A DNA stretch of 64,000 nt, taken from assembly GCA_046261975.1 (NCBI GenBank), contig JBHENQ010000107.1:11006-75005 (forward strand). The letters run 5' to 3'. The position numbers and the translations under genes are program-made. Every line of letters begins with the position of its first letter. Within the stretch, counting starts at the first letter, position 1. Positions 1,929 through 61,405 of this stretch are shown piece by piece. Under the pieces are notes generated by a model. That model made no database searches. It had not been told where the DNA came from and saw nothing but the letters and a program-made list of their open reading frames with translations. The DNA comes from Gemmatimonadaceae bacterium. Lineage in GTDB: Bacteria > Gemmatimonadota > Gemmatimonadetes > Gemmatimonadales > Gemmatimonadaceae.

Positions 1929-1957
1929 GTCGGGAGTCGGGAGTCGGGAATCGGGAG
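1929..1957. repeat. tandem heptamer array (GTCGGGA x3, ATCGGGA x1) directly after the stop codon of the S9 peptidase gene
   Basis: gtcgggagtcgggagtcgggaatcgggag read directly. Confidence 0.9.
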
Positions 1958-1982
1958 ATCCGAACATCCGGCCTCTCCACAA

Positions 1983-2017
1983 TTCCCTAATCCCTAATCC
2001 CTAATCCCTAATCCCTA
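1983..2017. repeat. tandem heptamer array (TCCCTAA/CCCTAAT x5; complement of TTAGGGA, telomere-like) abutting the stop of the DUF4142 gene
   Basis: ttccctaatccctaatccctaatccctaatccctag read directly. Confidence 0.9.
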
Positions 2018-2020
2018 GCT

Positions 2021-2623
2021 CTACATTCCGAACTTCTTCTCAATCGCCTCGGCAGCAGCGAGGTGAGCCTTGAGGGTCGGCAGAGTCGCCTCGATGGCGG
2101 CCTTCAGCTCCGCATTTAGCGTCTTCTCCCGGGCATCCTCGAGGTCGTCGATCAGGTCCTTGTGCATCGCGATCTCGTGCTCGATGTAGGCTTCGTCGAA
2201 CGACTCGCCCTTGTCCTTCTCGGCCAAGTCCTTCATCGCCTCGTTGTGATCCTCGACGATCCCATCATCGCCTGTGGCGGGCGCGGTGATGTTGAGCTTC
2301 GTGGCAAGCGCTTCGACCTGCTTCAGCGCCGCACCGTGCTCCTTCACCATGCGCCGCGCAAACGCCTTGACCTCGGCATCTGTAGCTTTCTTCACGGCCG
2401 CCTCGCCACCCTCTATGTCGGTCTTGTTAGCCGAGACGAGGTAGCCGACTACGTTGGCGTCGTTCCATTCCCGTGTAATAACGGATGGCGCCATGCCGGT
2501 GTCTGCCATCATGCCCGTATCCGTGGTTGCCACGTTGTCATCCTTTGGTGCGCAAGCCCCGATCATGACGACTGCTGCAGCGGCGAACACGGCGCGTGCG
2601 GCCGGTGAAATCTGTATTGCCAT
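2021..2623 (-). CDS. DUF4142 domain-containing lipoprotein
   Basis: Signal peptide with Cys lipobox-like site (MIGACAP). Asp/Glu/Lys-rich helical protein with His-containing motifs (KEHGAAL, EHEIAMHKD) typical of DUF4142. GGAGG 8 nt upstream of the ATG at 2621-2623. Confidence 0.6.
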   Translation of the reverse strand: MAIQISPAARAVFAAAAVVMIGACAPKDDNVATTDTGMMADTGMAPSVITREWNDANVVGYLVSANKTDIEGGEAAVKKATDAEVKAFARRMVKEHGAALKQVEALATKLNITAPATGDDGIVEDHNEAMKDLAEKDKGESFDEAYIEHEIAMHKDLIDDLEDAREKTLNAELKAAIEATLPTLKAHLAAAEAIEKKFGM

Positions 2624-2756
2624 TAGTGCCTCCATTTTGAGCTTAGACGTTCAGCCGGAACGACCTATCGAACCGGCACACTGCCCCGGTTTGCAAGAAC
2701 CGTACTCCACTGGGTGTTCCGTGGGATTGAGATTCAGGTTGCACCCCGAATCATGA

Positions 2757-3003: not shown

Positions 3004-3110
3004 CGGCCTAAACTTGCCATGGACGAGGATGGCGAAGAGTGCATTGCGCTCGGGCCGTAACCAGAGCGGAGCCCGAATGGGGAATCCGAGCGGTTTCTTG
3101 CTTCTACACA

Positions 3111-3183
3111 CTGGGGCGGGTGGACTCGAACCACCAACTTCCGGATTAACAGTCCGGCGGTCTGCCAGTTGACCTACACCCCA
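3111..3183 (-). tRNA. tRNA-Asn (anticodon GTT)
   Basis: Minus-strand sequence TGGGGTGTAGGTCAACTGGCAGACCGCCGGACTGTTAATCCGGAAGTTGGTGGTTCGAGTCCACCCGCCCCAG folds as a cloverleaf. 7-bp acceptor stem with one G-U. Anticodon stem CCGGA/TCCGG with loop CTGTTAA. T-arm GGTGG-TTCGAGT-CCACC. CCA not encoded. Confidence 0.8.
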
Positions 3184-3318
3184 AGAACACGAATCCCGCA
3201 GCCTCCTCAGGGATTCACGCCCCAAAATCTATCACAACATAGCGGAGAATACAGACACGAAGCCGAAACAGTCTTGACACGGGGGTCACACACAACTGCG
3301 ACTCCGGACTCCCGACAG

Positions 3319-4939
3319 TCAGCGCGTGCTCTGGGATGACGTACGCGCGGGCGTCACGCACTTCGGCCACTCGGACGGCTGCGGAAACCCTCCGGGCGCG
3401 GCTTGCGCAGGCGCGCCGGGCGAGAATATGCGCCGATCCCGGGGCACGCGGTCCGGATCCTCCGACGCCAGATAGACCAGCATGGCTACCAATGTCGCGT
3501 TGTTCTTGAGATCATCCCAGACGATCTTGTCGAAGGTGTCACGATTGGTGTGCCACGTATACGTTCCATACTCCCACGAGTTGGAGCCCAGTCCGAACGC
3601 GGGCGCTCCGTGACACACAAACGAGGCGCTATCGCTCCCGCCACCGCTGGGCGCGCCCGGAAAGATCCAGGAGATATGGCGCGAGATTTCGAGTGGGAGA
3701 TGAACAGCCCACCGGGTGAAGTTGGCTCCCGCGCCGGTGAATCCTTGCATCGAGATGTTCGAGACGCGCCCCGTTCCGTTGTCCTGATTGAACAACGCAT
3801 GCAGCCCGCGGACTACTTCGGGGTGATCCGCGGCGAACGACCGGGAGCCATTGAGCCGCTGCTCCTCCCCACTCCAATGCCCCACGAGGATCGTGCGCTT
3901 GGGCCGGGGATATACCGCTTTCAGAACGCGCATTGCTTCCATCATTGTAATGGTGCCGGTGCCGTTATCAGTTGCACCCGACCCCCCATCCCATGAATCG
4001 AAATGCGCGGACAGCATCACGTACTCGTCCGGCTTTTCGATCCCCTTGATTTCGGCAATGGTGTTGAACGCCGGCACCTCGCCCAGAAACTCGCTCTCCG
4101 CGCGAACGCGGACGATGGGTCCCTGGATGTTCTCCGCCAGTCGAAAGAGTAGTCCATAGTCCTCGCAGCTCAGGTCCAGCGCCGGAGCACGTTCGTTTTT
4201 CGTGTCGAAGATTTTGTTGACACCCCATCCGTTCGACCAGCGCGATGCGATTATCCCCGCCGCACCAGCTTGTTCGAGGCGCTTGCCAAGCGTCCCTGTG
4301 CCTAGCTGTAACAACGCCCCGGTAGCCCGCAGGCGAGCTGCCCACTTCTGTTCCGCGGCTGTGCGGTCAGCCCGCATCTTTTGCAAGTGACTCGGTGGTA
4401 GCGAACGCATGCCAGTTTGTGTCGGGCCTGCACGTCGGCTGTGGAAAGGAGACGAGCACAAATTTTCCTCTCGCCTGACCGCGTCCCAGCCAGGACGTGA
4501 AGGCATTGCTGTCCGCCACCTCCGGCAAGATCACTACCGGCGCTGTTACGTCCTTGCCGCCGGTACCAGGACTCCAAGCGAGCATGGTCCCTTCGAGCGT
4601 GCGCACTCGCGGTCTAAGCAAGTCGATATGTGTGATCCCACGTCGCCAGCCGCGCCACGTGCCGTACTGCTCGTTACGCGCGGAGATTCCCCATTTGGCG
4701 TACATCGCCACTGCCCAGTCGTTCGCTGCGTTCTGTCCGGGCGATCCAGTGAGCCGCGGTCCCACGGAGTCAAGGAGCGCCTGCGCGAGAGAGTATGCAT
4801 GCGAACGCTCCATTCCTTCGGCCCAGATTCGCCGGATCACCGTGTCTGCAGTCGGGAAGTTCTGTGCGCGAACGGTCACAGGGGTCCACAGTATTATGAA
4901 GCTGGCTGTGCAGACGAGAGCACGAAAAAGGGAGGGCAT
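3319..4939 (-). pseudogene. M28 family (PA-domain) aminopeptidase, frameshifted: N-terminal piece 4367..4939, C-terminal catalytic piece 3319..4506
   Basis: 190-aa ORF (4367..4939) has a signal peptide, M28 N-terminal region and the start of a PA domain (GKFVLV). The overlapping 395-aa ORF (3319..4506) in another frame continues the PA domain (AGAAGII) and carries the M28 zinc site HFDSWDGGSGATDNGTG. Together about 540 aa, the usual size of an M28 peptidase. Frame change lies in about 4370-4440. Confidence 0.55.
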
Positions 4940-8481: not shown

Positions 8482-8482
8482 C

Positions 8483-9103: not shown

Positions 9104-9141
9104 ACTATCGCCCAGTTACCTGGTAAGTCGTCGAGCGCGCC

Positions 9142-16854: not shown

Positions 16855-16924
16855 GGCAGGCAGATGAGTAGTATGGATCTTATTTTCAATCGGAAAAGTG
16901 ATGTTTCGGATTTAAGAGCTACTA

Positions 16925-16957
16925 CCCCACACCCCACACCCCACACCCGATCCCCCC
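16925..16957. repeat. tandem CCCCACA heptamers (x3-4) in the divergent promoter region between DUF885 and the GMC oxidoreductase
   Basis: ccccacaccccacaccccacacccgatcccccc read directly; complement is GTGGGGT x3. Confidence 0.8.
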
Positions 16958-27513: not shown

Positions 27514-27610
27514 GGAAATCGGGAATCGGGAATCGGGAATCGGGAATCGGGAATCGGGAATCGGATCCCGACTCCCGACTCCCGACTCCCGACTCCCGAC
27601 TCCCGACTCC
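27514..27610. repeat. inverted tandem heptamer arrays (GGGAATC)x6 - GGATCC - (CGACTCC)x6 between convergent genes
   Basis: Read directly. Left arm begins at the stop codon of the proline dehydrogenase gene and right arm ends at the stop of the TonB receptor gene. Arms complementary except one position per unit (A-C on plus strand, G-U on minus-strand RNA). Confidence 0.95.
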
Positions 27611-30280
27611 CTAGAAGGTATACTGCGTGCGCGCGATCACTAGTCTGCCGATCGTGGGTGCGCCCACGAACTCCCGGTGTCTCTCGTCAAATATGTTCTG
27701 GGCGTTCACGGCAAGCATCAACCCGCGGGCAAACGGGAGACGATACGCAACGTTAATGTCGGCCAGCGTGTACGACTCCACACGGCCTATGTAAACGCCG
27801 GAGTTCATCGGGAAATCGTCAACGTAGCGACCGCGTATCTCGCCCGATAACCCGCTCGTCTGGTTGCGGTATCGAAGGGCCAGCGAACCCTTGCTGCCAG
27901 GCGCATTGAGAGCAAGATCGGAGTTGCCGCCGATTTCGCTCCTGGGGAAGAAGTCCTTACTGACGAATGAGACAGTAGCGGCGACAGACACCACATCTGT
28001 CATGAGCGCCTCGACAGCCAGATCAGCACCCCATAGATCCAGATCGCCGAAGTTCCGATACGTGAGAAAGAGATCGGGGCTGTTGGTGAGAGGATTGTCT
28101 GGTGTCGCAGTTGCAAGCGGAACAGGTCCAACAGCCTGGGCCATCGCTGTGGCCTCGGCTGTAGCGCGCGCCTGCGCCTGCGCCGGCGGCATACCGGCCG
28201 CGATGTACGCCTGCGTGAGCCTGGTCGCCATGTAGGTGCCGAAAGATGTTGGGTCGACAAACACGCTCGGTGTCTCAACGATCAACGGGCCCACGAAATC
28301 AGTCTTCTTCTCGTAGTACACGTCGGCAGCGAGCAGTACGCGCTTCCCCAGCAATCCTTTGTAGCCACCCTCGATCGTGCTGCTGATCGTGGGCCGCAAT
28401 TGGTCGACGTCGACCACGTCCGCCACTGTTGCGCTTGTGAACGGCGGCCCAGTTCCGCTGGTGTTCAGCTTACGCAGCACCGTCTGAACCTGAGCCGGCG
28501 TTGGAGCAGGAATTTGCGAGATATTGATATTTCGGGCGGCAAGCAGACGTACGATCGGTACCCAGAGTCCCGTGATGTCGCTGGCAAGAAAAGCTGTCTG
28601 GTCGGCAGCGAAGGGTGAGCGCACACAGAGTCCGCCGGCGCAATCGCGGCGGAAACGCAGTCCGCCTTCTGGAACCCCTACCGTGCGAATGAAATAGGGC
28701 AGCTGCGCGTTGAGGCGCTGCACCTGAAGATCGAGGAACAGATTGTTGCTGGTTGGAGTGCTGAACGCGCGGTTGTACGTAAGCCTGAAGTTCTGGTCCT
28801 CTACCGGCTTGAAGACGAGCGCCGCGCGCGGCGAGAAAACAGGATCCTCCAGTCGGCTATGGTTATCCACCCGCGCGGCGGCTATGAAATTAAACTTCGG
28901 CGACAGCCTTGTCTCCGTGTGCACGTAGCCGCCAATCTCCGTGATCTTGTCGTCGTCCTCGTTCCGCCCGTTAATCGTGCCATCCGTCCGCGGATCGGTA
29001 TGTTGCACGTCCAGTCCGTAAATGAAATCGAACCGGTCGGCGAAGCCCATCCCGTGCTGAAGCTGTCCGACGTAGAGACGCGACTTGTCGACGATCCTCT
29101 GGCCGGTGCGGAGAAGGAAGGTTGAGTCGGTATTGCTCTGGTTCAGGAAGACCTGGCCAAAGAGACGCTTATGCCGAGCGCGGCCCTGATAGTACGTATA
29201 GTCCCAGTCCCTCGCCTGCGCGGCGCCGATTCCGGTAAGCTCGATCGCGTTGCCGGCAGATGCCCGGCCGACGCCAAATATCACGTCGGTGTTCGTCCCG
29301 GGACGCCAGTCTGCCCGTGCCTCGCCCGTCCAGCGCTCGACCTTGAAGTCACGCTTGTTCACACCGATGCCGGGAAGCGTATCCGGCTCCGCAGGGTCGT
29401 CAAACTCCCAGTCGTCACCCTGCATGTATTGGCCGGAAATCTTGTAACCAAAGGTCTCACCGACCACACCCGCATGCCGTCCCGAGCCAAGGAAGACAGA
29501 GCGCTCTCCGCCACCCACGCTCAGAGTAGTGCCCCTCGACGTGAACGGTGAACGCGAGATGATATGTAGAACACCGTTCGCACTGTTCGGGCCGTAAAGC
29601 GCGGCGCCCGGGCCAAGCACGATCTCGATCTTCTCAATGTCCTCATTCGTTACGGGAATCAGAAACGGCGTGTTGACGCGGAGCGACGGTACGGATGTGT
29701 ATCTGTTGTCCGTCATCGTCAGTAGCGCACCAGAGAAAACATTGCTGAATCCGCGCGCCACCGTGCTACTCTGCATGAGACCGGTCGTCGCGACATCCAC
29801 CCCGGGCTCACCACGAACGTGCTCCACCGGAGTGAGCACCGGACGATCCTCGATTCGTTCGGTTGGAACCACTGAAACCGACGCAGGCGCATCCAGCGCT
29901 TTTTCGGTGGTTCTCGACACTGTGACGACTTGTGGATTGAGCAGCGCGGCGGTGCTGGTCATGGTAGCCGAAGCGACCGTGACTTCGCTCGCGCTCACAC
30001 GAATACCTGGCAGACGCTGTTGCTGGTACCCGATTCGGGAAATCACAACTGTGTAAACGCCGGGCTCCAGATTGACGAGCCGATACTCTCCGTCATCTCC
30101 CGAAAGTGTGGCCGCCGCGACACCGCCGAGCGCTCCGAACGCCTCCACCCGAGCCGCTGGAACGCCCGCGCCAGTCTCGTCGGTTACCTTGCCGCTGATG
30201 ACGCCAGTCTGAGCGCTCGCAGCCGAGGCCGCGAAGATACCAAGCAGTGCGGTTAACAGAAGTCTGATCCGCATGATCAT
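27611..30280 (-). CDS. TonB-dependent outer-membrane receptor with N-terminal carboxypeptidase-regulatory-like domain
   Basis: Signal peptide (MIMRIRLLLTALLGIFAASAASAQ). CarboxypepD_reg-like GKVTDETGAGVPAARVEA. Plug and 22-strand barrel-sized body. C-terminal ...YTF. Start assigned to internal Met (ORF extends to 30325). Confidence 0.85.
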   Translation of the reverse strand: MIMRIRLLLTALLGIFAASAASAQTGVISGKVTDETGAGVPAARVEAFGALGGVAAATLSGDDGEYRLVNLEPGVYTVVISRIGYQQQRLPGIRVSASEVTVASATMTSTAALLNPQVVTVSRTTEKALDAPASVSVVPTERIEDRPVLTPVEHVRGEPGVDVATTGLMQSSTVARGFSNVFSGALLTMTDNRYTSVPSLRVNTPFLIPVTNEDIEKIEIVLGPGAALYGPNSANGVLHIISRSPFTSRGTTLSVGGGERSVFLGSGRHAGVVGETFGYKISGQYMQGDDWEFDDPAEPDTLPGIGVNKRDFKVERWTGEARADWRPGTNTDVIFGVGRASAGNAIELTGIGAAQARDWDYTYYQGRARHKRLFGQVFLNQSNTDSTFLLRTGQRIVDKSRLYVGQLQHGMGFADRFDFIYGLDVQHTDPRTDGTINGRNEDDDKITEIGGYVHTETRLSPKFNFIAAARVDNHSRLEDPVFSPRAALVFKPVEDQNFRLTYNRAFSTPTSNNLFLDLQVQRLNAQLPYFIRTVGVPEGGLRFRRDCAGGLCVRSPFAADQTAFLASDITGLWVPIVRLLAARNINISQIPAPTPAQVQTVLRKLNTSGTGPPFTSATVADVVDVDQLRPTISSTIEGGYKGLLGKRVLLAADVYYEKKTDFVGPLIVETPSVFVDPTSFGTYMATRLTQAYIAAGMPPAQAQARATAEATAMAQAVGPVPLATATPDNPLTNSPDLFLTYRNFGDLDLWGADLAVEALMTDVVSVAATVSFVSKDFFPRSEIGGNSDLALNAPGSKGSLALRYRNQTSGLSGEIRGRYVDDFPMNSGVYIGRVESYTLADINVAYRLPFARGLMLAVNAQNIFDERHREFVGAPTIGRLVIARTQYTF

Positions 30281-30374: not shown

Positions 30375-30458
30375 CGGGTGTGGGGTGTCGGGTGTGGGGT
30401 GTCGGGTCTGAGATTTGGTCTGTTTCCTGTTAGCTGTTCCCTGTGAGCTGTTCGCTGG
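30375..30458. repeat. GGGTGTG/GGGTGTC heptamer array followed by CTGTTNC-type repeats upstream of the TonB receptor gene
   Basis: gggtgtggggtgtcgggtgtggggtgtcgggtc then ctgtttcctgttagctgttccctgtgagctgttcgctgg read directly. Confidence 0.8.
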
Positions 30459-37687: not shown

Positions 37688-37890
37688 GGAGTCGGGAGTC
37701 GGGAGTCGGGAGTCGGGAGTCGGGAGTCGGGAGTCGGGAGTCGGGAGTCGGGAAGAGCTTTGAAAGGAATATAAGGAGAAAGAGAATAGGGAATAGGAAC
37801 CATCCCTATTCCCTATCCCTATCCCGACTCCCGACTCCCGACTCCCGACTCCCGACTCCCGACACCCGACACCCGACACCCGACACCCGA
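37688..37890. repeat. nested inverted heptamer arrays: (GAGTCGG)x9 ... (AATAGGG)x2 / (TCCCTAT)x3 ... (GACTCCC)x5 (GACACCC)x5
   Basis: Read directly. About 200-nt two-level palindrome between the lipoprotein gene stop (37899) and the ggt start (37687). Confidence 0.95.
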
Positions 37891-37898
37891 CACCCGAG

Positions 37899-38351
37899 CT
37901 ACTCGATCTTGAACTCCTCCGATTCGACCACTGACCCATTCAGAAGGACCTCGAGCTTGTATTTCCCTTTTGGCAGTCCGCCCGGCTTGCTGATGTGAAA
38001 TTCCGTCACGGACGGCCCGGTTGGGGATACTGTTTGGCTGGTCTCCTCGACAACTTGACCGTCTTCGAAGGTCCACCGGGCTTTTAGCTCGGCGTTGGAG
38101 GCCGAGCCTGTCGTGGCGACGGACGCATAGACTACATCGCCTGGATCAAAGTCGTCAGTCTTGTCGACGACGCGCTTATCAGCGTCGACACCTTTGCCGA
38201 GTTCTACCTCGGTGACGGCCAGATTGGCCACCGTCGCCACAGCTCCGGCGTCTCTCTCCTCAGTCTTATCCGTCTTGCCGCAAGCCGCTGCAGCAACAAG
38301 CAAGCACAGGGCGAGCGCGCTAGCGCGCCCAGTTAGCGTGTAGTGCGACAT
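37899..38351 (-). CDS. hypothetical lipoprotein
   Basis: Signal peptide with lipobox LVAAAAC. 150 aa, Thr/Val/Glu-rich beta-type sequence, no known motif. Stop codon abuts the repeat array. Confidence 0.5.
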   Translation of the reverse strand: MSHYTLTGRASALALCLLVAAAACGKTDKTEERDAGAVATVANLAVTEVELGKGVDADKRVVDKTDDFDPGDVVYASVATTGSASNAELKARWTFEDGQVVEETSQTVSPTGPSVTEFHISKPGGLPKGKYKLEVLLNGSVVESEEFKIE

Positions 38352-42168: not shown

Positions 42169-42175
42169 TGAGAAC

Positions 42176-42311
42176 TAGGGATTAGGGATCAGGGATTGGG
42201 GATTAGGGAACGGAAACTTGGGCCCTGTGCGTCGGGCCGGCTATGGAGAGTCCGCAGTGGTATTCCCTAATCCCTAATCCCTAATCCCTAATCCCTAATT
42301 CCTAATCCCTA
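42176..42311. repeat. inverted telomere-like heptamer arrays: (GGGATTA)x5 - 50-nt spacer - (CCCTAAT)x7
   Basis: Read directly. Between the ettA start and the TolB-like gene stop. The last 4 codons (G-I-R-N-stop) of the TolB-like ORF lie inside the right arm. Confidence 0.95.
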
Positions 42312-45647: not shown

Positions 45648-45880
45648 TCTTCGGGTTGGTTGTTCAGGCGGGTGGTATCAGAAATTTGCTCAAAATGCAT
45701 CAGAGAATCAAGTTTTAGCGATCAGAAGGACGAAAAGCTGCAAAATGCGCCTGCAATATTGCGCTGGATGCATTATTCATGCGACGGTATCCGGCTGAAA
45801 TTGAGCACTTCAGGCCGCTAGGCGCGGCCTCCACACCGCGCCGCAAGTCGATCGTTGCACTGGCTCCAGATCGGAGTGTC

Positions 45881-45921
45881 TACACCCTACACCCCACACC
45901 CCCCACCCCACACGCGACACC
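45881..45921. repeat. CCCCACA-type heptamer array (single arm, about x5) between glnA and glnN
   Basis: tacaccctacaccccacaccccccaccccacacgcgacacc read directly. Confidence 0.75.
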
Positions 45922-47882: not shown

Positions 47883-47998
47883 TTACAGGTCACAGCTGAC
47901 AGGTAACAGCTGACAGGTAACACCTAACACTTGTTGTCACCTGTGACCTGTTCCCTGTCACCTGTGACCTGTCACCTGTTCCCTGTTACCTGTAACTA
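47883..47998. repeat. inverted repeat built from ACAGGTN / CAGCTGA heptamer-like units (left arm about 38 nt, right arm about 62 nt)
   Basis: ttacaggtcacagctgacaggtaacagctgacaggtaaca ... tgtcacctgtgacctgttccctgtcacctgtgacctgtcacctgttccctgttacctgtaa read directly. Between the CBS gene and the zinc-ribbon gene. Confidence 0.9.
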
Positions 47999-54418: not shown

Positions 54419-54540
54419 AAGAGCCGGAGGCCGGCGGTAGGCTCTTGGGAATCGGGAGTCGGAAACGCGAAGCGTTCCGATTCCCGGCTCTTGACCTCCC
54501 TTCCCACGCTCTCCGCTCCGAGTTAAGGTATTCACCGGAC

Positions 54541-55086: not shown

Positions 55087-55090
55087 AGCT

Positions 55091-55193
55091 AGGGATTAGG
55101 GATTAGGGATTAGGGATTAGGGAAAATGGCAGTGCCATTTGTAGTCCTCTAGTCCTAGTCCCTAATCCCTAATCCCTAATCCCTAATCCCTAG
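55091..55193. repeat. inverted telomere-like heptamer arrays (AGGGATT)x4 / (TCCCTAA)x5 flanking a central 8-1-8 palindrome AAATGGCA-G-TGCCATTT
   Basis: Read directly. Between convergent MerR-like (+) and cls (-) genes. Confidence 0.95.
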
Positions 55194-55195
55194 CG

Positions 55196-56589: not shown

Positions 56590-57297
56590 TTGCGATTTGA
56601 CGAGCGCGTTGTGATAGTAACGGGTGTGGGACGTAAAGGTCAGGTAGGGGATTTCGTCGCGCGCACGTTTGCTACTCTTGGCGCGTTCGTCGTCGCTGTC
56701 GATCACGACGGCTCGGAGGTAAATGCCCGGGTGGACGAGCTGCAAGCTGCCGGATTGAAGGGCCAAGCGTACGAGTGCGATCTGACCAGCGAAGCTGCCG
56801 TGTCTACCCTCGCCTCGGCAATCTTGAACAAGTTTGAACGAGTGGATGCCCTGATCAATCTGGCGGGCGGCTTCTCCATGGGCGGGCCCCTTGCGGACAG
56901 CGACTTCCAGCTGTGGCAGAGGCAATTCGCGATCAATCTCACCACCGCCTACCTTGCGACACGGGCGCTGCTCCCATTGCTGCGGCCGGCTCGCGGCAGC
57001 ATTGTCTATATGTCCTCCGCTGCCGCGCTGCCTGGCGCCAAAGTCGCAGAGATGTCCGCTTACGCGGCGGCGAAAGGCGGTGTGATCACCCTGATGCGGG
57101 CAGTCGCGGAAGAAGAGCGGGAGCGTGGTGTTCGAGCGAACGCCCTGGCGCCCTCGGCCATTCGCACTGCGGCCAACGTTGAAACGATGGGCGAGAGCCG
57201 GAGCTACGTGTCACGCGAAGAGGTCGCCGCAACTATCACGCTCCTATGCTCGGAAGAAGCGCGGCCGATCACGGGGCAAGTGATAGCTATGGGCTGA
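56590..57297 (+). CDS. SDR family short-chain dehydrogenase/reductase
   Basis: Gly-rich NAD(P) motif VVIVTGVGRKGQVG, catalytic YAAAKGG (YxxxK). 235 aa (alternative start codon). Confidence 0.8.
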   Translation: MRFDERVVIVTGVGRKGQVGDFVARTFATLGAFVVAVDHDGSEVNARVDELQAAGLKGQAYECDLTSEAAVSTLASAILNKFERVDALINLAGGFSMGGPLADSDFQLWQRQFAINLTTAYLATRALLPLLRPARGSIVYMSSAAALPGAKVAEMSAYAAAKGGVITLMRAVAEEERERGVRANALAPSAIRTAANVETMGESRSYVSREEVAATITLLCSEEARPITGQVIAMG

Positions 57298-57302
57298 CAT
57301 TT

Positions 57303-58154
57303 ATGACCACTACGGCGCGGCGCCGGACAGTCACGCGAACGATCCTCCTCGATCGGTCCCTGGAGGCCCTTCCAGTCTTCCGTCTGAGCGACTCGGCCGA
57401 CGAAGCCGCAATCAACTACTCGCCCGCGGGCGGTGGACGCTGGCGCGTCCTCCCCAGCCCCGGCGACAGACTTCCCGGCACTTTCGACCAGGACGTTTAC
57501 GTCGAGATCTGGCACAGATACCTGGACGCGGGCATGCCCTCCGACGGCACTGTCTCTTTCACTCTGCACGCATTTCTGCGCTCGATGGGCCGGCGTGTGG
57601 ACGGACGGACCTATGAGCAGCTTCGGTCCGCGCTCTCGCGGCTGGAACACACCACGCTCGAGTCCCAGGGTGCGTACCGGGACGCTGTCACCGGCACGGT
57701 CCTGGACGGACGTATGGCCCTTTTGGCAGCAGTGATCGTCGAGCGGCGTCGCGTTGCCGACCGGGACCAGTTCACGCTGTTCTCCACCCTCACCGCTTCC
57801 GAACCCGGCGAGGCTCGCGTCATTGTCTCCCCCGCGGCGCGATCAAACATCGCGGCAGGCCACGCGATAACGCTGTCAGCGCAACAATATCGAGCTCTCT
57901 CCTCTCCTGTCGCGCGCAGGCTGTATCGTCTACTCGAGGTCGCGCGTGAAGAAGGAAATCTATTGTGGCACGTTTCGCTGGAGCAACTTGCGGGACAATT
58001 GCCTCTCGCGCAGCATTACCCATCGCATCTGCAGCGCGTTCTCCAGCCCGCGCATGAGATGCTTCTGGCAACCGGACTTTTGCGCGAAGCGACGATGGGC
58101 CAACATATGCGGGACTGGTACGTCGATTACCTGCTGGCACCCAGAGTAGCGTAG
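57303..58154 (+). CDS. hypothetical protein (possible winged-helix / replication-initiator-like fold; unassigned)
   Basis: 283 aa from ATG 57303, 5 nt after the SDR stop. Arg-rich, predicted helical C-terminal half (ITLSAQQYRALSSPVARRLYRLLEVAREEGN). No motif I can assign. Confidence 0.5.
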   Translation: MTTTARRRTVTRTILLDRSLEALPVFRLSDSADEAAINYSPAGGGRWRVLPSPGDRLPGTFDQDVYVEIWHRYLDAGMPSDGTVSFTLHAFLRSMGRRVDGRTYEQLRSALSRLEHTTLESQGAYRDAVTGTVLDGRMALLAAVIVERRRVADRDQFTLFSTLTASEPGEARVIVSPAARSNIAAGHAITLSAQQYRALSSPVARRLYRLLEVAREEGNLLWHVSLEQLAGQLPLAQHYPSHLQRVLQPAHEMLLATGLLREATMGQHMRDWYVDYLLAPRVA

Positions 58155-58481: not shown

Positions 58482-58595
58482 ATCGTATTCTATACGGACA
58501 GGTCCTGTAACAACCTGCAGGTTTGTGCGTCACACACGTGGTTGATTGGCTGTGCACAGCATGCGTCCAAGCTGCGTAGTCCTTATTCCTAACCG

Positions 58596-60194
58596 GTGGC
58601 TCCTATGCGTCGCGTTCGCCCGAAAATCATAGCTCTCAGCCTGCTGTTTCCCCTCCTGATAGGCGGTTTCGTCGTTCAGGAGCGGGCTACACGCGATGGC
58701 GCTCGGCTCTTCGATCAAGTACTCTCGCTTGTCGGCGACCGTTTCGTGGACACCGTCGATGCGGCCGCACTCTATGAGAAGGCCGCCCGAGGACTCGTTC
58801 AGCAGCTGGGGGATCCCTATTCAGAGCTTCTTTCGCCCAAGCAACTCCAGCGCTTTTCGACCAGCTCGACAGGCCGTTACAGCGGGATCGGAATGCAGAT
58901 TGAGAACCAGGAAGGTAGCATCACCGTGGTGCGCGTCTTCCCAAACACCCCCGCGGAGAAGGCTGGCGTTGTCGAGGGCGACCGAATCGTGGGAGTGGAC
59001 ACCGCTTCCACTCGCGGCTGGACCACACAGCAGGTTTCAGACGCACTTCTGGGCGTGCCTGGCACCAAAGTAACGGTTCGGTTCGCGAGACCCGGCGTGG
59101 CGCAGGTGATCGAGCATCGCGTGCAGCGCGCCGAGATACATATACCCGCGGTTCCCTACGCTCTGATGTTGGACGATCAGATCGCGTACATCCCGCTCCA
59201 GACCTTCAACGAGACAGCGACACAGGAGCTTCAGGAAGCTATCCGGCGTTTAACGAACGCCGGAGCTCACGGAATTATTCTGGATCTCAGGAACAACCCT
59301 GGCGGAATTCTGGACCAGGGACTCGCCGTCGCCGATCTTTTTCTGAAGGAGGGTCAGCAGATCGCGCAGGTGCGTGCTCGCCAGGGCCAGAGCCAGTCTT
59401 TCCTGGCGCGGGGCCGTGTTCACATCGCGAGCAGGCCGCTGGTCGTCATGGTGGACAATAGCTCGGCCTCGGCGGCCGAGATTGTGGCCGGCGCTCTCCA
59501 GGATCACGATCGGGCGCTCGTAGTCGGCACTACATCATACGGTAAAGGACTGGTGCAGACTGTCTTTCCACTGGACGGGGGGTATGCCCTCAAGATGACT
59601 ACCGCCAAGTGGTTCACGCCTAGCGGAAGAACCATCCAGAAGGACCGGACGGCTGAAACACCGAGCGCGACCGCTGCAGACGAGCCTCCGGATTCCCTGG
59701 AAAGGGAGTCGGTGAAGAAGGATCGTCCGGTATTCAAGTCTGACGCCGGCCGCAACGTTTACGGGGGCGGCGGCATAACGCCTGACGTCATAGTGCCCGA
59801 AGACACGCTAAGCACCGCCGAGCAGGAGTTTGCCCGCGCGCTCGCTCCGAAGTCGGCGGTCGTCCGGTCGGTACTGTATAACTACGCTCTCGACCTCAAG
59901 TCCAAGGTGAGTCGCGGGTTCACACCTCAACCCGCGTGGCGCGAGGAGTTCTTTCAGAGACTCGATTCCTCCAAAGTGGCCATTAACCGGAAACAGTATG
60001 ATTCAGCGGCAACACTGGTGGATCGTTGGATCTCGACACAGGTGACGCGGTTCGCCTTCGGTGACTCGGCAGAGTTTCGCCGCAGCATTCCGCGCGACCC
60101 CCAGCTGCTTCGAGCGATCGAGCTGCTGAAGAAAGGACGTACACAGCAGGATCTCTTCACGCTCGCACAGGCAGCACAGAGGCAAACGAAGTAG
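58596..60194 (+). CDS. carboxyl-terminal processing (S41, tail-specific) peptidase with PDZ domain
   Basis: Signal anchor. PDZ (GIGMQIEN...ITVVRVFPNTPAEKAGVVEGDRIVGVD). S41 Ser/Lys dyad regions (LDLRNNPGG...; SASAAEIVAGALQ; TSYGKGLVQ). 532 aa. Confidence 0.85.
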   Translation: MAPMRRVRPKIIALSLLFPLLIGGFVVQERATRDGARLFDQVLSLVGDRFVDTVDAAALYEKAARGLVQQLGDPYSELLSPKQLQRFSTSSTGRYSGIGMQIENQEGSITVVRVFPNTPAEKAGVVEGDRIVGVDTASTRGWTTQQVSDALLGVPGTKVTVRFARPGVAQVIEHRVQRAEIHIPAVPYALMLDDQIAYIPLQTFNETATQELQEAIRRLTNAGAHGIILDLRNNPGGILDQGLAVADLFLKEGQQIAQVRARQGQSQSFLARGRVHIASRPLVVMVDNSSASAAEIVAGALQDHDRALVVGTTSYGKGLVQTVFPLDGGYALKMTTAKWFTPSGRTIQKDRTAETPSATAADEPPDSLERESVKKDRPVFKSDAGRNVYGGGGITPDVIVPEDTLSTAEQEFARALAPKSAVVRSVLYNYALDLKSKVSRGFTPQPAWREEFFQRLDSSKVAINRKQYDSAATLVDRWISTQVTRFAFGDSAEFRRSIPRDPQLLRAIELLKKGRTQQDLFTLAQAAQRQTK

Positions 60195-60203
60195 ATTTCT
60201 CGC

Positions 60204-61262
60204 ATGCGATTTACGAGATCTCTTGCAGCGGCCACTCTGGTGGCCGCTGTCGCATGCGTGGGCACAAGCTCCTCTTCTTCAGGCCCCGGCATGTCCGTGG
60301 TGCCTCAGGCCGGCGAGAGGCATCTGGCGAACATTCGGCAGATCACCTTCGGCGGCGAGAACGCGGAAGCCTACTTCAGCCCTGACGGAAAGAAGCTCAT
60401 CTTTCAGTCCACACGGGACGGACGCACCTGTGACCAGCAGTACGTCGTCGATATAGACGGTAGTCACTTGCGCCGCGTCTCCACCGGCGCGGGCAAGACA
60501 ACATGCGGCTTCTTTTTTCGCAGCGGCAACCGTATCCTCTTCTCGTCGTCGCACGAAGCCGACACTGCCTGCCCGCCACGCCCCGACTATTCCCGTGGCT
60601 ATGTCTGGCGTCTTGATCCGTTTGACATCTTCACCGCTGATGCCGACGGCGCCAATCTGCGCAGGCTGACGAAATACGGCAGGTACACGGCTGAGGCAAC
60701 TCTCTCACCCGATGGCAGTTTCATCGTCTTCACTTCACTGAAGGATGGAGACCTCGAGATCTACACCATGCGTTCCGACGGAAGCGGCGTGCGCAGGCTT
60801 ACCAACACACCCGGCTACGACGGCGGCGCTTTCTTTTCGCCGGATGGCAGGCAAATCGTTTACCGCGCATCGCATCCATCCGATTCGGCCGAGTTGGGCG
60901 ACTACCGCCGGCTGCTGAGTGAGCGGCTAGTCCGGCCCTCTAGGATGGAAATCTGGATCATGAATGCCGACGGCAGCGGGCAGCGGCAGGTGACCAGTCT
61001 GGGAGGCGCCAACTTCGCCCCTTACTTCACGCCTGATGGGAAACAGATAATCTTCGCCTCTAACCATACGAACGCGCGTTCGCGAAACTTTGATCTCTAT
61101 CTGATCAACAGGGACGGCAGTGGACTCGAACAGGTAACCACGAGCGCGGAGTTCGACAGCTTCCCAATGTTCAGTCCGGACGGGCGAAAGTTGGTGTGGG
61201 CTTCGAACCGAAACGCGGCTGCGCCAGGGGAAACGAACATCTTCATTGCCGACTGGAGATGA
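60204..61262 (+). CDS. PD40/TolB-like beta-propeller protein, secreted
   Basis: Signal peptide. Five or more PD40 repeats (YFSPDGKKLIFQS, TLSPDGSFIVFTS, FFSPDGRQIVYRA, YFTPDGKQIIFAS, MFSPDGRKLVWAS). 352 aa. Confidence 0.8.
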   Translation: MRFTRSLAAATLVAAVACVGTSSSSSGPGMSVVPQAGERHLANIRQITFGGENAEAYFSPDGKKLIFQSTRDGRTCDQQYVVDIDGSHLRRVSTGAGKTTCGFFFRSGNRILFSSSHEADTACPPRPDYSRGYVWRLDPFDIFTADADGANLRRLTKYGRYTAEATLSPDGSFIVFTSLKDGDLEIYTMRSDGSGVRRLTNTPGYDGGAFFSPDGRQIVYRASHPSDSAELGDYRRLLSERLVRPSRMEIWIMNADGSGQRQVTSLGGANFAPYFTPDGKQIIFASNHTNARSRNFDLYLINRDGSGLEQVTTSAEFDSFPMFSPDGRKLVWASNRNAAAPGETNIFIADWR

Positions 61263-61333
61263 CACTGGTGAGCAGCGCGTCAAGTCTGTAACATCAGGTG
61301 GCTTGCGGCGGTGGTAGTGAAGATCGCGAAGTA

Positions 61334-61405
61334 GGGGGTGTCGGGTGTGGGGTGTCGGGTGTGGTGTAAACCCCGACACCCTACACCCGACACCCCACAC
61401 CCGCC
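61334..61405. repeat. inverted heptamer arrays (GGGGTGT/CGGGTGT)x4 - TGTAAA - (CCCGACA/CCCCACA/CCCTACA)x5
   Basis: Read directly. Between the TolB-like gene and the SPFH gene on the same strand. Confidence 0.9.

What the first reader, a model, noticed from the sequence alone, without database searches (positions are those of the whole stretch)
1929..61405. Recurring intergenic architecture: inverted arrays of tandem G3N4 heptamers facing their C3N4 complements (hairpin or paired G-quadruplex/i-motif)
At ten or more intergenic sites the same design recurs. The sites are 1929-2017, 16925-16957, 27514-27610, 30375-30407, 37688-37890, 42176-42311, 45881-45921, 54447-54487, 55091-55193 and 61334-61405. 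Each has 3-9 tandem copies of a 7-nt unit of the form N-T-N-G-G-G-N (GTCGGGA, ATCGGGA, TTAGGGA, ATAGGGA, GTCGGGT, GTGGGGT), then a short spacer, then tandem copies of the complementary C-rich unit. The unit sequence differs from site to site but the architecture does not. They therefore look like independently maintained structural elements rather than copies of one mobile element. Every G-rich arm satisfies the canonical quadruplex motif (four or more G3 tracts with 4-nt loops), and TTAGGG-type arrays are the classic G4 formers. Alternatively the two arms pair into 30-70-bp hairpins or cruciforms. They sit exactly at gene boundaries: stop codons abut the arrays at 1928/1929, 27513/27514, 27610/27611, 37890/37899, and within 42295-42311. 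Positions are convergent gene ends, same-strand gene junctions, or divergent promoter regions. Plausible roles are bidirectional transcription termination or insulation, G4-mediated regulation, or recombination/phase-variation hotspots. I do not recognise this as a described repeat family but cannot search.
Basis: seen in the sequence. Interest (0 to 1): 0.85.

Follow-up and report, generated by a model that had tools for sequence, protein, structure and literature searches.

The report
Heptamer microsatellite hairpins at gene ends
The window, from a Gemmatimonadaceae-like bacterium, has unusually many tandem 7-base G-rich repeats of the GGGANTN type after stop codons, often as mirror-image pairs predicted to fold into long hairpins; this repeat class was described in Xanthomonas and Nostoc in 2015 and its function is still unknown.

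Summary
The arrays are real and far beyond chance. There are 16 period-7 arrays against 0.38 in shuffles, and 58 GGGWNTV dimers against 0.2. All dimers lie in the ten listed sites.

Only seven of the ten sites have both arms. Sites 16925, 30375 and 45881 are single arrays. The arms are not always complementary.

The 84 G-rich units give the consensus GGG(A/T)N-T-(not T). That is the GGGANTN heptamer repeat of Rehm et al. 2015 (PMC4692102), described in Xanthomonas and Nostoc. That paper already reports inverted pairs, overlap with stop codons, scarcity between divergent genes, and G4/i-motif formation in vitro. The class is therefore known. The host is new: its ABC-F protein is 80-81% identical to Gemmatimonadaceae MAGs.

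Ten of the eleven sites follow a stop codon. All three convergent gaps longer than 13 nt are filled entirely by a pair. Paired sites are predicted to fold as hairpins of -29 to -168 kcal/mol, and G4 is predicted only for lone arms.

The same design occurs with units lacking G3, here and in other phyla. G4 therefore cannot be the common principle.

My best reading is slippage-driven microsatellites that persist at gene 3' ends as transcript-end hairpins. That function is inferred, not shown. Interest is low to moderate.

The parts
1927..2017 (.). Inverted pair: (GAGTCGG)x4.4 at 1927-1957, a 26-nt spacer, then (TCCCTAA)x4.9 at 1984-2017. It fills the whole 92-nt gap between convergent genes (S9 peptidase stop at 1928, DUF4142 stop at 2021). 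The arms mismatch at 2 of 7 positions.
   Evidence: TRF; sequence; gene map; fold -34.4/-39.8 kcal/mol, z -2.8/-2.5
3299..3316 (-). Degenerate proto-array GTCGGGA GTCCGGA GTCG, 2 nt after the stop of the M28 peptidase gene (3319-4386, - strand). Not in the finding.
   Evidence: sequence downstream of the stop; Pfam
16924..16957 (-). Single array, G-rich on the - strand: (GGGGTGT)x3.6. It has no partner arm. It is the only site in a divergent gap (DUF885 gene start at 16854, GMC oxidoreductase start about 17056).
   Evidence: no hairpin (z +0.6/+1.5); G4 is the predicted MFE on the - strand
27514..27613 (.). Inverted pair: (AATCGGG)x6.9 and (TCCCGAC)x6.6 with a 6-nt loop. It fills the whole 97-nt gap between the proline dehydrogenase stop (27513) and the TonB-dependent receptor stop (27611). 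The palindrome extends into both TTCTAG gene ends.
   Evidence: fold -71.0 on + (A.C mismatch every 7 nt) and -96.9 on - (G.U), z -8.8/-13.8
30375..30407 (+). Single G-rich array of alternating GGGTGTG/GGGTGTC (period 14, 100% match). It lies upstream of the TonB receptor start on the antisense strand and has no complementary arm.
   Evidence: z -1.5/+0.1
30420..30457 (+). Heptamer array without G3, (CTGTNNN)x5. It ends 2 nt before the stop of the GFO/IDH/MocA oxidoreductase gene (30460, - strand). Not in the finding.
   Evidence: TRF
37688..37897 (.). Largest element. It consists of (GGAGTCG)x9.4 at 37688-37753, a spacer, a nested inner pair of ATAGGGA-type units at 37783-37819, then (TCCCGAC)x6 + (ACCCGAC)x5 at 37822-37897. 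It occupies essentially all of the 211-nt gap between the stop at 37899 and the gamma-glutamyltranspeptidase start ATG at 37687, both on the - strand.
   Evidence: fold -168.1 kcal/mol, z -16.3; start codon and signal peptide; inner hairpin plus T-rich tail
42174..42311 (.). Inverted pair: (TAGGGAT)x4.9 with point variants, a 51-nt spacer, then (TCCCTAA)x6.9. It fills the gap between the ABC-F start (42168, - strand) and the PD40 gene. The stop of the PD40 gene (42295) and its last 5 codons (LGIRN*) lie inside the array.
   Evidence: fold -76.6/-78.0, z -7.2/-8.7
45880..45921 (-). Single degenerate array, G-rich on the sense (- strand), 8 nt after the stop of glutamine synthetase (45929-47293). 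It has no partner arm.
   Evidence: no hairpin; G4 predicted on the - strand
47885..47996 (.). Inverted pair of heptamers without G3: (ACAGGTN/ACAGCTG)x6 and (TGTNACC/TGTTCCC)x8. It starts 3 nt after the stop of a CBS-domain gene (47882, + strand). Not in the finding.
   Evidence: TRF; inverted repeats I2/I3/I6; fold -50.7/-60.2, z -5.7/-7.3
54447..54487 (+). Short hairpin with GGGAATC GGGAGTC on the 5' arm and one GATTCCC on the 3' arm, 29 nt after a stop at 54418. Two G3 tracts only, so there is no G4 motif.
   Evidence: fold -29.4/-22.5, z -4.9/-3.2
55090..55193 (.). Inverted pair: (TAGGGAT)x4.9 and (CCTAATC)x5.6. The arms are 36 nt and 100% complementary, and the spacer holds its own small hairpin AAATGGCAGTGCCATTT. 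The pair fills the convergent gap between the MerR-family stop (55086) and the phospholipase-D-like stop (55196).
   Evidence: fold -70.6/-71.2, z -10.8/-11.4
61334..61405 (.). Inverted pair of alternating GGGTGTC/GGGTGTG units (period 14). The alternation is mirrored in the C arm. It lies between the PD40 gene stop (61262) and the Band-7 gene start (61445), both on the + strand.
   Evidence: fold -60.5/-54.2, z -7.3/-5.6

Best explanation
These are heptanucleotide simple-sequence-repeat arrays of the GGGANTN class, in a Gemmatimonadaceae-like genome where they are unusually dense.

Identity (confidence about 0.9). Each arm is a microsatellite that grows, shrinks and homogenises internally in steps of 7 or 14 nt. 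This looks like replication slippage or unequal exchange. It explains why units are uniform within an arm but differ between arms and between sites.

Function (inferred; about 0.4 as stated, 0.42 overall). The arrays persist almost only in the 3' flank of genes. When two arrays lie in convergent, G-rich-arm-first orientation, the transcript from either direction folds into a 25-70-bp GC-rich hairpin that begins at the stop codon.

I take that hairpin to be the working form. It would act as a U-tract-independent barrier at transcript 3' ends that stops or pauses RNA polymerase. It would insulate convergent and tandem transcription units from each other and protect the upstream mRNA from 3' exonucleases. 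This is how REP/BIME elements behave in enterobacteria (recalled knowledge, not checked here).

In tight same-strand junctions the fold also loops the insert out. The upstream stop and the downstream start then end up side by side at the base of the stem. That may be why such large inserts are tolerated.

G-quadruplex or i-motif folding is a possible alternative conformer only for lone arms, or transiently before the second arm is made.
For: Identity:
- The period-7 excess is 16 against 0.38, with periods 4 and 5 at chance.
- The position matrix of 84 units gives GGG, A/T, N, T (92%), not-T. This matches the Xanthomonas (GGGANTN)n consensus, where positions 1-4 and 6 are conserved.
- GGGWNTV dimers number 58 against 0.2 expected.

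Slippage and independent arm dynamics:
- Arrays are perfect within an arm (100% match at 27517-27564 and 37688-37753) yet differ systematically between arms.
- A block of five ACCCGAC variants has spread within one arm at 37857-37897 without a matching change opposite.
- Period-14 super-units are present.

Position:
- 10 of 11 sites follow a stop codon.
- All three convergent gaps longer than 13 nt are filled entirely by a pair. The other four convergent junctions have gaps of 1, 13, -19 and -48 nt.
- Pooled over 1.41 Mb, the median distance is 9 nt to the upstream stop and 51 nt to the downstream start (34 against 11, p = 8e-4).
- Divergent gaps hold 6 elements against 19 expected (p = 0.0015), and none of the six is a pair.

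Structure:
- Hairpins range from -29 to -168 kcal/mol, with z from -3.2 to -16 at six of the seven paired G-rich sites and at 47885. Site 1927 is weaker (z about -2.5 to -2.8).
- The hairpin is the minimum-energy fold even with a G4 energy model.

Need for a non-canonical signal:
- Hairpin plus T-run terminators are below chance in two segments (6 vs 15.0 and 9 vs 15.3 in shuffles) and above it in the third (27 vs 14.8). The only ones at an array are two overlapping hits on the inner hairpin at 37783-37819.

Literature: in Xanthomonas, transcripts start or stop at such repeats more often than at control repeats.
Against: - No transcript data exist for this organism, so termination, insulation and stabilisation are all inferred from position and predicted folding.
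- The arms diverge without compensation. At site 1927, 2 of 7 positions are unpaired. Pairing is therefore not tightly maintained.
- At same-strand junctions the sense-strand hairpin is no more stable than the antisense one (8 against 10, Wilcoxon p = 0.30). There is thus no G.U signature of RNA-level selection.
- Three of the ten listed sites have a single arm and cannot form the hairpin.
- Hairpin function alone does not explain the 7-nt period, nor why positions 1-4 and 6 are conserved across phyla.
- Close relatives (L001, L003, L008-L010) have no arrays in the region sampled. The arrays are therefore dispensable at the family level.
- My gene models are heuristic and the 84 comparison loci were picked by one gene, so they are not a random sample.
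Confidence: 0.42

Rival explanations
1. The arrays are a non-functional mutational by-product. Heptamer microsatellites arise and expand through a lineage-specific slippage bias. They are copied in inverted orientation by template switching. They survive only where they do no harm, namely 3' flanks and convergent gaps. The positional pattern then reflects purifying selection elsewhere, not a function.
For: - The distribution is patchy even within Gemmatimonadaceae, at 0.25 arrays per kb here against 0 in several relatives.
- The GGGWNTV type is almost confined to this genome.
- The arms drift apart without compensation.
- There is no sense-strand stability bias.
- Arrays encroach on ORF ends: LGIRN* is array-encoded.
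- Arrays make up 14% of intergenic DNA.
- In 2018 the literature still found 'no clear clue' to a function.
Against: - The arrays abut stop codons very tightly, with a median of 9 nt. They are not spread through the free 3' space.
- There is a strong orientation rule. 19 of 23 pairs are G-rich arm first, and all 19 pairs from lineages other than Acidobacteriota follow it.
- Core positions of the unit are conserved across three phyla.
- In Xanthomonas, 83% of repeats are kept in the same gene context between species and lie in unusually stable neighbourhoods.
Confidence: 0.27
2. The arms act separately as G-quadruplex (G-rich strand) and i-motif (C-rich strand) elements in DNA or RNA. They would modulate transcription, R-loop formation or translation near stop and start codons.
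For: - Fifteen arms have at least four G3 tracts with 4-nt loops, against 0.015 expected.
- Oligonucleotides with the same GGGAATC unit form K+-dependent G4s, and their complements form i-motifs, in vitro.
- Single-arm sites 16924 and 45880 are predicted to fold as G4 on the G-rich strand.
- The G-rich-arm-first orientation would let an RNA G4 form before the C arm is transcribed.
Against: - The same architecture, position and orientation occur with heptamers lacking G3, at 47885-47996 here and as CAGTTGA, TAGGCTG, GGTGGCT and TGATTCC elsewhere.
- In the paired elements the hairpin wins by 25-150 kcal/mol in a G4-aware model. Isolated arms reach only -8 to -23 kcal/mol where the model predicts a G4; the 37822-37897 arm folds as a -29.7 kcal/mol hairpin instead.
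- There is no consistent choice of strand relative to the genes at the three single-arm sites.
- Rehm et al. could not link the repeats to gene regulation.
Confidence: 0.15
3. The arrays are binding platforms for a protein that reads single-stranded or double-stranded nucleic acid in a 7-nt register. Candidates are an OB-fold or cold-shock-domain protein, S1, a CsrA-like GGA binder or a nucleoid protein. The repeat unit would be the footprint of one protomer.
For: - Positions 1-4 and 6 of the unit are conserved (GGGA.T.) while positions 5 and 7 vary freely, even where this breaks arm complementarity at site 1927.
- The same core recurs in Xanthomonas (GGGANTN) and fits Nostoc GGGGA(C/T)T when read as GGGAYTG.
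- Authors working on Beggiatoa and Nostoc heptamers independently proposed an unidentified binding partner.
Against: - No candidate protein was identified here.
- Many different heptamer families coexist, even within one locus. This would need many binders or a very relaxed one.
- The conserved GGG could equally reflect G4 formation or slippage propensity.
Confidence: 0.1
4. The pairs are miniature mobile elements (MITE- or REPIN-like) spread by a transposase or RAYT. Alternatively, they are assembly artefacts.
For: - They are inverted-repeat elements in intergenic DNA.
- Three pairs share CTAGGGA...TCCCTAG termini.
Against: - There are no target-site duplications, and spacers are unrelated (scores equal to shuffles).
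- Unit sequence and copy number differ at every site.
- No transposase, integrase or RAYT domain was found among the ~50 gene-model proteins scanned.
- The same kind of array occurs in dozens of independent assemblies, including one deposited as a single 3.3-Mb chromosome (L007) and several contigs of 0.5-3 Mb. This argues against an artefact.
Confidence: 0.04

Closest known systems
GGGAATC / (GGGANTN)n heptameric G-rich repeats of Xanthomonas campestris and X. axonopodis, and GGGGA(C/T)T of Nostoc PCC 7120 (Rehm et al. 2015, PLoS One, PMC4692102)
   Same: - The unit consensus is the same: GGG-A/T-N-T-N. GGGAATC and GGGAGTC are among the commonest units here.
- Copy number is variable (3.6-10.9 here, 2-26 there).
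- About 90% of the repeats are intergenic.
- They lie within 0-50 nt of, or overlap, the stop codon, with the G-rich strand on the coding strand.
- The C-rich strand lies just upstream of start codons.
- They are depleted between divergent genes.
- Convergent inverted pairs are frequent.
- Neighbouring genes are housekeeping or metabolic.
   Different: - The host phylum is Gemmatimonadota, not Gammaproteobacteria or Cyanobacteria.
- Density is higher: 15 arms in 64 kb, against about 186 in 5 Mb for X. campestris.
- Position 4 is T in 29% of units (the GGGTGTC/GGGTGTG subfamily).
- Several unit subfamilies coexist.
- Pairs fill whole intergenic gaps.
- In vitro G4 formation was not tested for these exact sequences.
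Intergenic tandem heptamer repeats of prokaryotes in general. These include cyanobacterial STRR sequences (Mazel et al. 1990, cited), TAACTGA repeats of Beggiatoaceae, Cyanobacteria and Bacteroidetes (MacGregor 2015, PMC4679880), and the SPADE survey (Mori et al. 2018, PMC6344855).
   Same: - The period is 7 nt.
- The location is intergenic.
- Unit sequences are lineage-specific.
- The taxonomic distribution is patchy.
- The function is unknown.
- The non-G3 arrays at 47885 and 30420 belong to this wider phenomenon.
   Different: - TAACTGA repeats lie mostly just upstream of start codons and are almost never inverted (169 direct sets against 1 indirect).
- STRR units differ in sequence, and I know them only from cyanobacteria (recalled, not checked here).
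REP / BIME / REPIN elements of enterobacteria and pseudomonads (from established knowledge, not tested here)
   Same: This is the closest analogue for how the pairs may work.
- They are abundant intergenic palindromes at 3' ends and operon junctions.
- They often occur as inverted doublets.
- They form RNA hairpins that stabilise upstream mRNA and can attenuate or terminate transcription without a U-tract.
   Different: - REP arms are unique 20-40-nt sequences of one genome-wide family and are mobilised by RAYT transposases.
- Here the arms are tandem 7-nt microsatellites of varying unit and length.
- No RAYT was seen, and spacers and flanks are unrelated.
Canonical intrinsic (Rho-independent) and bidirectional terminators
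   Same: A GC-rich stem-loop lies immediately after the stop codon. At convergent genes one symmetric element serves both directions.
   Different: - Stems are 25-70 bp instead of 5-14 bp.
- There is no U-tract on either side, except after the inner hairpin at 37783-37819.
- Stems are built from tandem repeats.

Membership tests
GGGANTN heptameric G-rich SSR arrays (Rehm et al. 2015) | Tandem head-to-tail heptamers, at least 2 units, with consensus GGGANTN (positions 1-4 and 6 conserved) | tested here: met
   The matrix of 84 units gives G/G/G, A 60 and T 24, N, T 77 of 84, and A/C/G never T. TRF finds period 7 with 81-100% match. Position 4 is T in 29% of units, a slight widening of the consensus.
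GGGANTN heptameric G-rich SSR arrays (Rehm et al. 2015) | Strong bias to non-coding DNA, close to or overlapping the stop codon of the 5' neighbouring ORF | tested here: met
   All 58 motif dimers lie in intergenic sites or at ORF ends. 10 of 11 sites follow a stop. The pooled median distance to the stop is 9 nt.
GGGANTN heptameric G-rich SSR arrays (Rehm et al. 2015) | Frequent convergent inverted pairs, one array on each strand | tested here: met
   7 of 10 G-rich sites are pairs, and all are G-rich arm first.
GGGANTN heptameric G-rich SSR arrays (Rehm et al. 2015) | Under-representation between divergent ORFs | tested here: met
   1 of 11 sites here is divergent. Pooled, 6 were observed against 19 expected, chi-square p = 0.0015.
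GGGANTN heptameric G-rich SSR arrays (Rehm et al. 2015) | Preference for four units (the minimum for a G4) | tested here: inconclusive
   Copy numbers run from 3.6 to 10.9 with a median of 4.9. With n = 15 and a detection floor of 3 units, no mode can be established.
GGGANTN heptameric G-rich SSR arrays (Rehm et al. 2015) | K+-dependent G4 formation by the G strand and i-motif formation by the C strand in vitro | not testable with these tools
   Only a prediction is available. Isolated arms fold as G4 at -8 to -23 kcal/mol in ViennaRNA's G4 model (one arm, 37822-37897, folds as a hairpin instead), and the hairpin wins in the full pairs.
Canonical intrinsic terminator | Short GC-rich hairpin followed directly by a U-rich tract | tested here: not met
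   The terminator scan places none at the arrays except on the inner hairpin at 37783-37819, which is followed by CTTTCTCCTT. Flanks of the pairs have no T-runs.
REP / REPIN | A genome-wide family of one conserved 20-40-nt palindromic sequence, associated with a RAYT gene | tested here: not met
   The arms are tandem heptamers whose unit and length differ from site to site. No Y1-transposase domain was found among the ~50 gene-model proteins scanned. The rest of the genome was not available.
MITE | Terminal inverted repeats flanked by target-site duplications, with a shared internal sequence between copies | tested here: not met
   There are no flanking direct repeats, and spacer alignments score no better than shuffles.
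Phase-variation (contingency) SSR | A repeat inside the 5' part of an ORF or between promoter elements of surface or adaptation genes, so that length changes switch expression | tested here: not met
   The arrays lie after stop codons of peptidases, glutamine synthetase, ABC-F, proline dehydrogenase and similar genes.

The most novel reading that the evidence does not exclude
GGGANTN arrays might be a sequence-specific cis-element shared by Gemmatimonadota, Xanthomonadales and Cyanobacteria. A dedicated factor would read them in a 7-nt register. In inverted, G-rich-arm-first pairs they would replace U-tract terminators as a bidirectional termination and insulation device. In operon junctions the hairpin would bring the stop and the next start codon together, allowing SD-independent re-initiation. 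This fits two junctions here: stop 37899 and start 37687, and stop 42295 and start 42168. Neither has a Shine-Dalgarno sequence. That would give the 'prime-number periodicity' of prokaryotic intergenic DNA a function.
Probability: 0.1. Interest if true: 0.7.

Novelty: new member of a known kind. Interest (0 to 1): 0.3.

Why it matters
Tandem heptamers are reported as the most abundant intergenic periodic repeat across prokaryotes, with no known function (Mori et al. 2018).

This window adds three things:
- It extends the specific GGGANTN class to a third, distant phylum.
- It is an unusually clean and dense example. Every convergent gap longer than 13 nt is one inverted pair, and two operon-type junctions consist entirely of array.
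- Together with the comparison loci, it shows that the inverted, stop-abutting architecture does not depend on G3 tracts. This moves attention from G-quadruplexes towards the hairpin and the 7-nt period itself.

It does not reveal a new kind of element. Its value is as a good test organism for the open question of function.

Tried and rejected
- Source contig by exact protein look-up: nothing on record.
- Strain-level relatives, to test copy-number polymorphism. The metagenome scan with the TonB receptor found only 42-43% identical proteins, so no length comparison was possible.
- RNA-level selection test. Sense and antisense hairpin energies were compared at 18 same-strand junctions, since G.U pairs only help one strand. 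The result was 8 against 10, p = 0.30.
- Canonical terminator scan. Counts are below chance in two segments and above it in one, and none sits at an array except the inner hairpin at 37783-37819.
- Mobile-element tests (target-site duplication, spacer similarity, transposase or RAYT domains): all negative.
- Rfam at gathering threshold: only tRNA-Asn.
- Literature searches for 'GGGAATC' and for heptameric repeats plus terminator returned nothing relevant. No paper links heptamer repeats to Gemmatimonadota. Mrazek et al. 2007 is not held.
- Telomere-like, CRISPR-like and phase-variation readings were rejected on anatomy. The arrays are internal, contiguous 7-nt units with no spacers, and they sit at 3' ends.

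Full report

Yes. Tandem Repeats Finder reports period-7 arrays at every listed coordinate, and the sequences read as the finder described.

I wrote my own detector requiring at least 3 units and at least 80% self-match. It finds 16 period-7 arrays against 0.38 in 50 dinucleotide-preserving shuffles. Periods 4 and 5 are at chance and periods 8-12 are absent. Runs of at least four G3 or C3 tracts with 4-nt loops occur 15 times against 0.015 expected.

The dimer GGGWNTVGGGWNTV occurs 58 times against 0.20 expected. Every hit lies in one of the ten listed sites, so the finder's list of G-rich sites is complete. The stop codons at 1928, 27513, 27611, 37899 and 42295 abut or lie inside arrays as claimed.

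Three parts of the description do not hold:
- Sites 16925-16957 and 45881-45921 are lone C-rich arrays. Site 30375-30407 is a lone G-rich array followed by an unrelated (CTGTNNN)5 array. None of the three folds better than shuffles.
- Site 54447-54487 has 2 + 1 units and only two G3 tracts. It is an ordinary short hairpin.
- The arms are not always complementary. GTCGGGA faces TTAGGGA at 1927-2017, giving 2 of 7 unpaired and z of only -2.5 to -2.8. GGGAATC faces GGGAGTC at 27514, giving A.C on one strand and G.U on the other, at -71 against -97 kcal/mol. The outer five units of the C arm at 37857-37897 have become ACCCGAC with no matching change opposite.

The finder also missed arrays of the same design that lack G3. 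These are 47885-47996, an inverted pair of ACAGGTN-type units with z of -5.7/-7.3, and 30420-30457. There is also a proto-array at 3299-3316.

**2. Where the window comes from and what surrounds the arrays.**

GC content is a flat 0.60. The ABC-F protein (40492-42168, - strand) is 80-81% identical to proteins of Gemmatimonadaceae MAGs, and identity falls away through other Gemmatimonadales. No closer relative was found.

The genes are ordinary chromosomal ones. They include peptidases, GH20, G6PD, proline dehydrogenase, a TonB-dependent receptor, gamma-glutamyltranspeptidase, a DEAD-box helicase, ABC-F, two glutamine synthetases, a histidine kinase and CorA. There is no transposase, integrase or RAYT.

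I made a codon-log-odds gene map, in which starts are approximate. In it, 10 of 11 array sites lie directly after a stop codon. Three sites are between convergent genes and seven are at same-strand junctions. One site (16924) is in a divergent gap, and that one is single-armed.

All three convergent gaps longer than 13 nt (92, 97 and 109 nt) consist entirely of one inverted pair. The other four convergent junctions have gaps of 1, 13, -19 and -48 nt.

At 37688-37897 the array occupies essentially all of the 211 nt between the stop at 37899 and the real start of the transpeptidase gene. That start is the ATG at 37687, which is followed by a signal peptide. The ABC-F start lies 5 nt from a C arm. 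Neither start has a Shine-Dalgarno sequence. The last five codons of the PD40 gene (LGIRN*) are array sequence. Array elements make up 1,027 nt, or 14% of intergenic DNA.

**3. What the units are.**

I aligned 84 G-rich units in register. They give G, G, G, then A (60) or T (24), then any base, then T (77 of 84), then A, C or G but never T. The commonest units are GGGAGTC (22), GGGATTA (19), GGGTGTC (11), GGGAATC (9) and GGGTGTG (9).

**4. Structure.**

As single strands, six of the seven paired G-rich sites and the pair at 47885 fold into long hairpins. Energies run from -29 to -168 kcal/mol and z from -3.2 to -16. Site 1927 is the seventh pair and is weaker (z about -2.5 to -2.8). These pairs are the longest inverted repeats in the window.

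With ViennaRNA's G-quadruplex model switched on, the hairpin remains the minimum-energy fold at all seven paired sites on both strands. Isolated G arms fold as G4 at only -8 to -23 kcal/mol; one arm, 37822-37897, is predicted to fold as a -29.7 kcal/mol hairpin instead. G4 is the predicted fold only at the single-arm sites 16924 and 45880, on their G-rich strand.

Canonical terminators (a hairpin followed by a T-run) are below chance in two of three 20-kb segments (6 against 15.0, 9 against 15.3) and above it in the third (27 against 14.8). The segment 60001-64000 was not scanned. The only hits that coincide with an array are two overlapping ones on the inner hairpin at 37783-37819, which is followed by CTTTCTCCTT on the sense strand.

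**5. Related sequences.**

The 84 loci fetched (1.35 Mb) were chosen by gene homology, not for repeats. In them, period-7 arrays occur patchily in other Gemmatimonadaceae, Gemmatimonadales, Acidobacteriota, Lysobacterales and a Wallbacteria MAG.

They again come as inverted pairs, but with quite different units, most of them without G3:
- CGGGAAG (L007)
- GGGAATC and GGTGGCT (L012)
- GTTCGNN (L002)
- GGGAGTC (L051)
- CCCAACT/GGGATTT and TGATTCC (L056, L058)
- CAGTTGA, TAGGCTG and GGCGGAC (L075, L076)

Several pairs flank the same ABC-F gene: upstream in the window, L002, L004, L012 and L019, and downstream in L007, L042, L075 and L076. The GGGWNTV type itself is nearly confined to the window's genome, with 58 hits in 64 kb against 5 hits in 1.35 Mb.

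Pooled over 1.41 Mb there are 81 elements. Of these, 45 are at same-strand junctions, 13 are convergent, 6 are divergent (all single-armed), 15 are inside genes and 2 lie at the edge of a locus. Divergent gaps are depleted, with 6 observed against 19 expected by intergenic length (p = 0.0015). At same-strand junctions the element lies a median of 9 nt from the upstream stop and 51 nt from the downstream start (34 against 11, p = 8e-4).

Of 23 inverted pairs, 19 have the G-rich arm first. By symmetry this holds on both strands. The four exceptions are all from Acidobacteriota.

**6. Comparison with the literature.**

Rehm et al. 2015 (PMC4692102) describe GGGAATC / heterogeneous (GGGANTN)n heptamer repeats in Xanthomonas campestris (186 sites) and X. 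axonopodis (183 sites). Their findings match what is seen here:
- Positions 1-4 and 6 are conserved.
- Arrays have 2-26 units.
- 89-93% of sites are intergenic.
- Arrays lie on average 28 nt from the 5' neighbouring ORF, often overlapping its stop codon.
- They are rare between divergent genes.
- In 70-75 cases they form convergent inverted pairs able to form stem-loops.
- Oligonucleotides form K+-dependent G4s and i-motifs in vitro.
- Transcripts start or stop at the G4-capable repeats more often than at control repeats.
- 83% of sites are conserved in position between the two species, with variable length.
- No function was found.

The Nostoc units GGGGA(C/T)T fit the same frame when read as GGGAYTG.

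Mori et al. 2018 (PMC6344855) found tandem heptamers to be the most abundant intergenic periodic repeat across 7,006 prokaryotic genomes, with 'no clear clue' to function. MacGregor 2015 (PMC4679880) and a 2022 preprint on Nostoc recF/recO (10.1101/2022.06.06.494920) propose an unidentified binding partner for other heptamers. I found no paper linking such repeats to Gemmatimonadota.

The finder's belief that this is an undescribed family is therefore wrong. The element passes every sequence-based membership criterion I could test (see the membership table).

**7. How it most likely works.**

What is shown:
- The elements are period-7 microsatellites.
- Units are uniform within an arm but differ between arms and sites.
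- They sit at stop codons and avoid divergent promoters.
- The pairs are predicted to fold as very stable hairpins.

What is inferred:
- Arms change length by slippage in steps of 7 or 14 nt. TRF sees period-14 super-units, and a variant block has spread within one arm.
- The paired form acts at transcript 3' ends as a U-tract-independent barrier, insulator or exonuclease block, in the way REP/BIME elements do. It would serve both directions at convergent genes.
- In tight operon-type junctions the fold loops the insert out and brings stop and start together. This would explain why inserts of 126-211 nt are tolerated there.

I put identity at about 0.9 and this functional reading at about 0.4.

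The main rival (about 0.27) is that the arrays are tolerated mutational debris. Evidence for it:
- The distribution among close relatives is patchy.
- The arms diverge without compensation.
- The sense strand shows no stability advantage over the antisense strand (8 against 10, p = 0.30).

Evidence against it:
- The arrays abut stop codons tightly.
- The G-rich-arm-first rule is strong.
- The GGGA.T. core is conserved across phyla.
- Positions are conserved between Xanthomonas species.

The G4/i-motif reading (about 0.15) remains possible for lone arms or as a transient co-transcriptional state. It cannot be the common principle, because the same architecture exists without G3 tracts. A protein reading a 7-nt register (about 0.1) would explain why positions 1-4 and 6 are kept even where pairing is lost, but no candidate was identified. 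A mobile element or an assembly artefact is unlikely (about 0.04 together).

**8. Caveats.**
- The gene models are heuristic.
- The comparison loci were all selected around one gene.
- My detector ignores arrays of fewer than 3 units.
- No transcript, strain-variation or biophysical data exist for this organism.

**9. Verdict.**

The feature is real and striking, and it belongs to a known kind: the GGGANTN subclass of the widespread intergenic heptamer repeats. Here it appears in a new phylum and at high density. The finder's architecture is right for seven of ten sites. The hairpin alternative is better supported than the G4 reading, and the claim of an undescribed family is not supported. 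Interest is 0.3.

Noticed in passing
window 47885-47996 and 30420-30457: Heptamer arrays without G3 tracts but with the same design and position. The first is an ACAGGTN/NACCTGT inverted pair starting 3 nt after a stop. The second is a (CTGTNNN)5 array ending 2 nt before a stop on the - strand. They show that the architecture does not depend on G-quadruplex potential.
   Followed up: yes
window 27510-27617, 42175-42312, 55088-55194: Three pairs begin with CTAGGGA and end with TCCCTAG, whatever the inner unit is. At 27510 the palindrome extends to TTCTAG/CTAGAA, so both convergent genes end in Phe-stop supplied by the element. With n = 3 the meaning is unclear. No target-site duplication was found.
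   Followed up: partly
window 37685-37901 and 42166-42297: At two same-strand junctions the array fills the whole space between a stop and the next start codon, with no Shine-Dalgarno sequence. In the folded RNA the stop and start would lie side by side at the base of the stem. This raises the possibility of re-initiation across the hairpin, or of a C-rich SD-less leader.
   Followed up: partly
window + loci L007, L012, L026, L051, L067, L075, L076 versus L056-L058: There is an orientation rule. In 19 of 23 inverted pairs the G-rich arm comes first, so on both strands. The four C-first pairs are all from Acidobacteriota MAGs.
   Followed up: partly
window 30375-30407, 61334-61405, 47935-47993: TRF reports period-14 or period-21 super-units, for example alternating GGGTGTC/GGGTGTG. 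At 61334-61405 the alternation is mirrored in the opposite arm. This suggests either inverted duplication of a whole array or selection for pairing.
   Followed up: no
window 3299-3316 (-) and about 3190-3230: A degenerate 2.5-unit GTCGGGA proto-array lies 2 nt after the stop of the M28 peptidase gene. Further downstream there is a GAATCCC...GGGATTC hairpin, near tRNA-Asn (3110-3184, - strand).
   Followed up: no
window 35792-37939 (-): GTCGGGA-type arrays have no stop codon in any frame on either strand, so longest-ORF calls run through them. This ORF is 84 codons too long and 'encodes' SGVGCRESG.../RLPTPDS repeats. Such arrays could inflate gene calls in automatic annotation.
   Followed up: yes
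window 57246-58154 (+): A 302-aa protein hits Pfam RPA, 'replication initiator protein A' (E = 4.6e-19), in a stretch that otherwise looks chromosomal. It overlaps the preceding short-chain dehydrogenase gene model by 52 nt.
   Followed up: no
loci L002 (upstream of 10001), L004, L019: Other Gemmatimonadaceae carry degenerate inverted heptamer arrays next to the same ABC-F gene but with different cores: GTTCGNN/NNCGAAC, GGGACNN and GATCNNG-type. A few positions per heptamer are fixed and the rest vary.
   Followed up: partly
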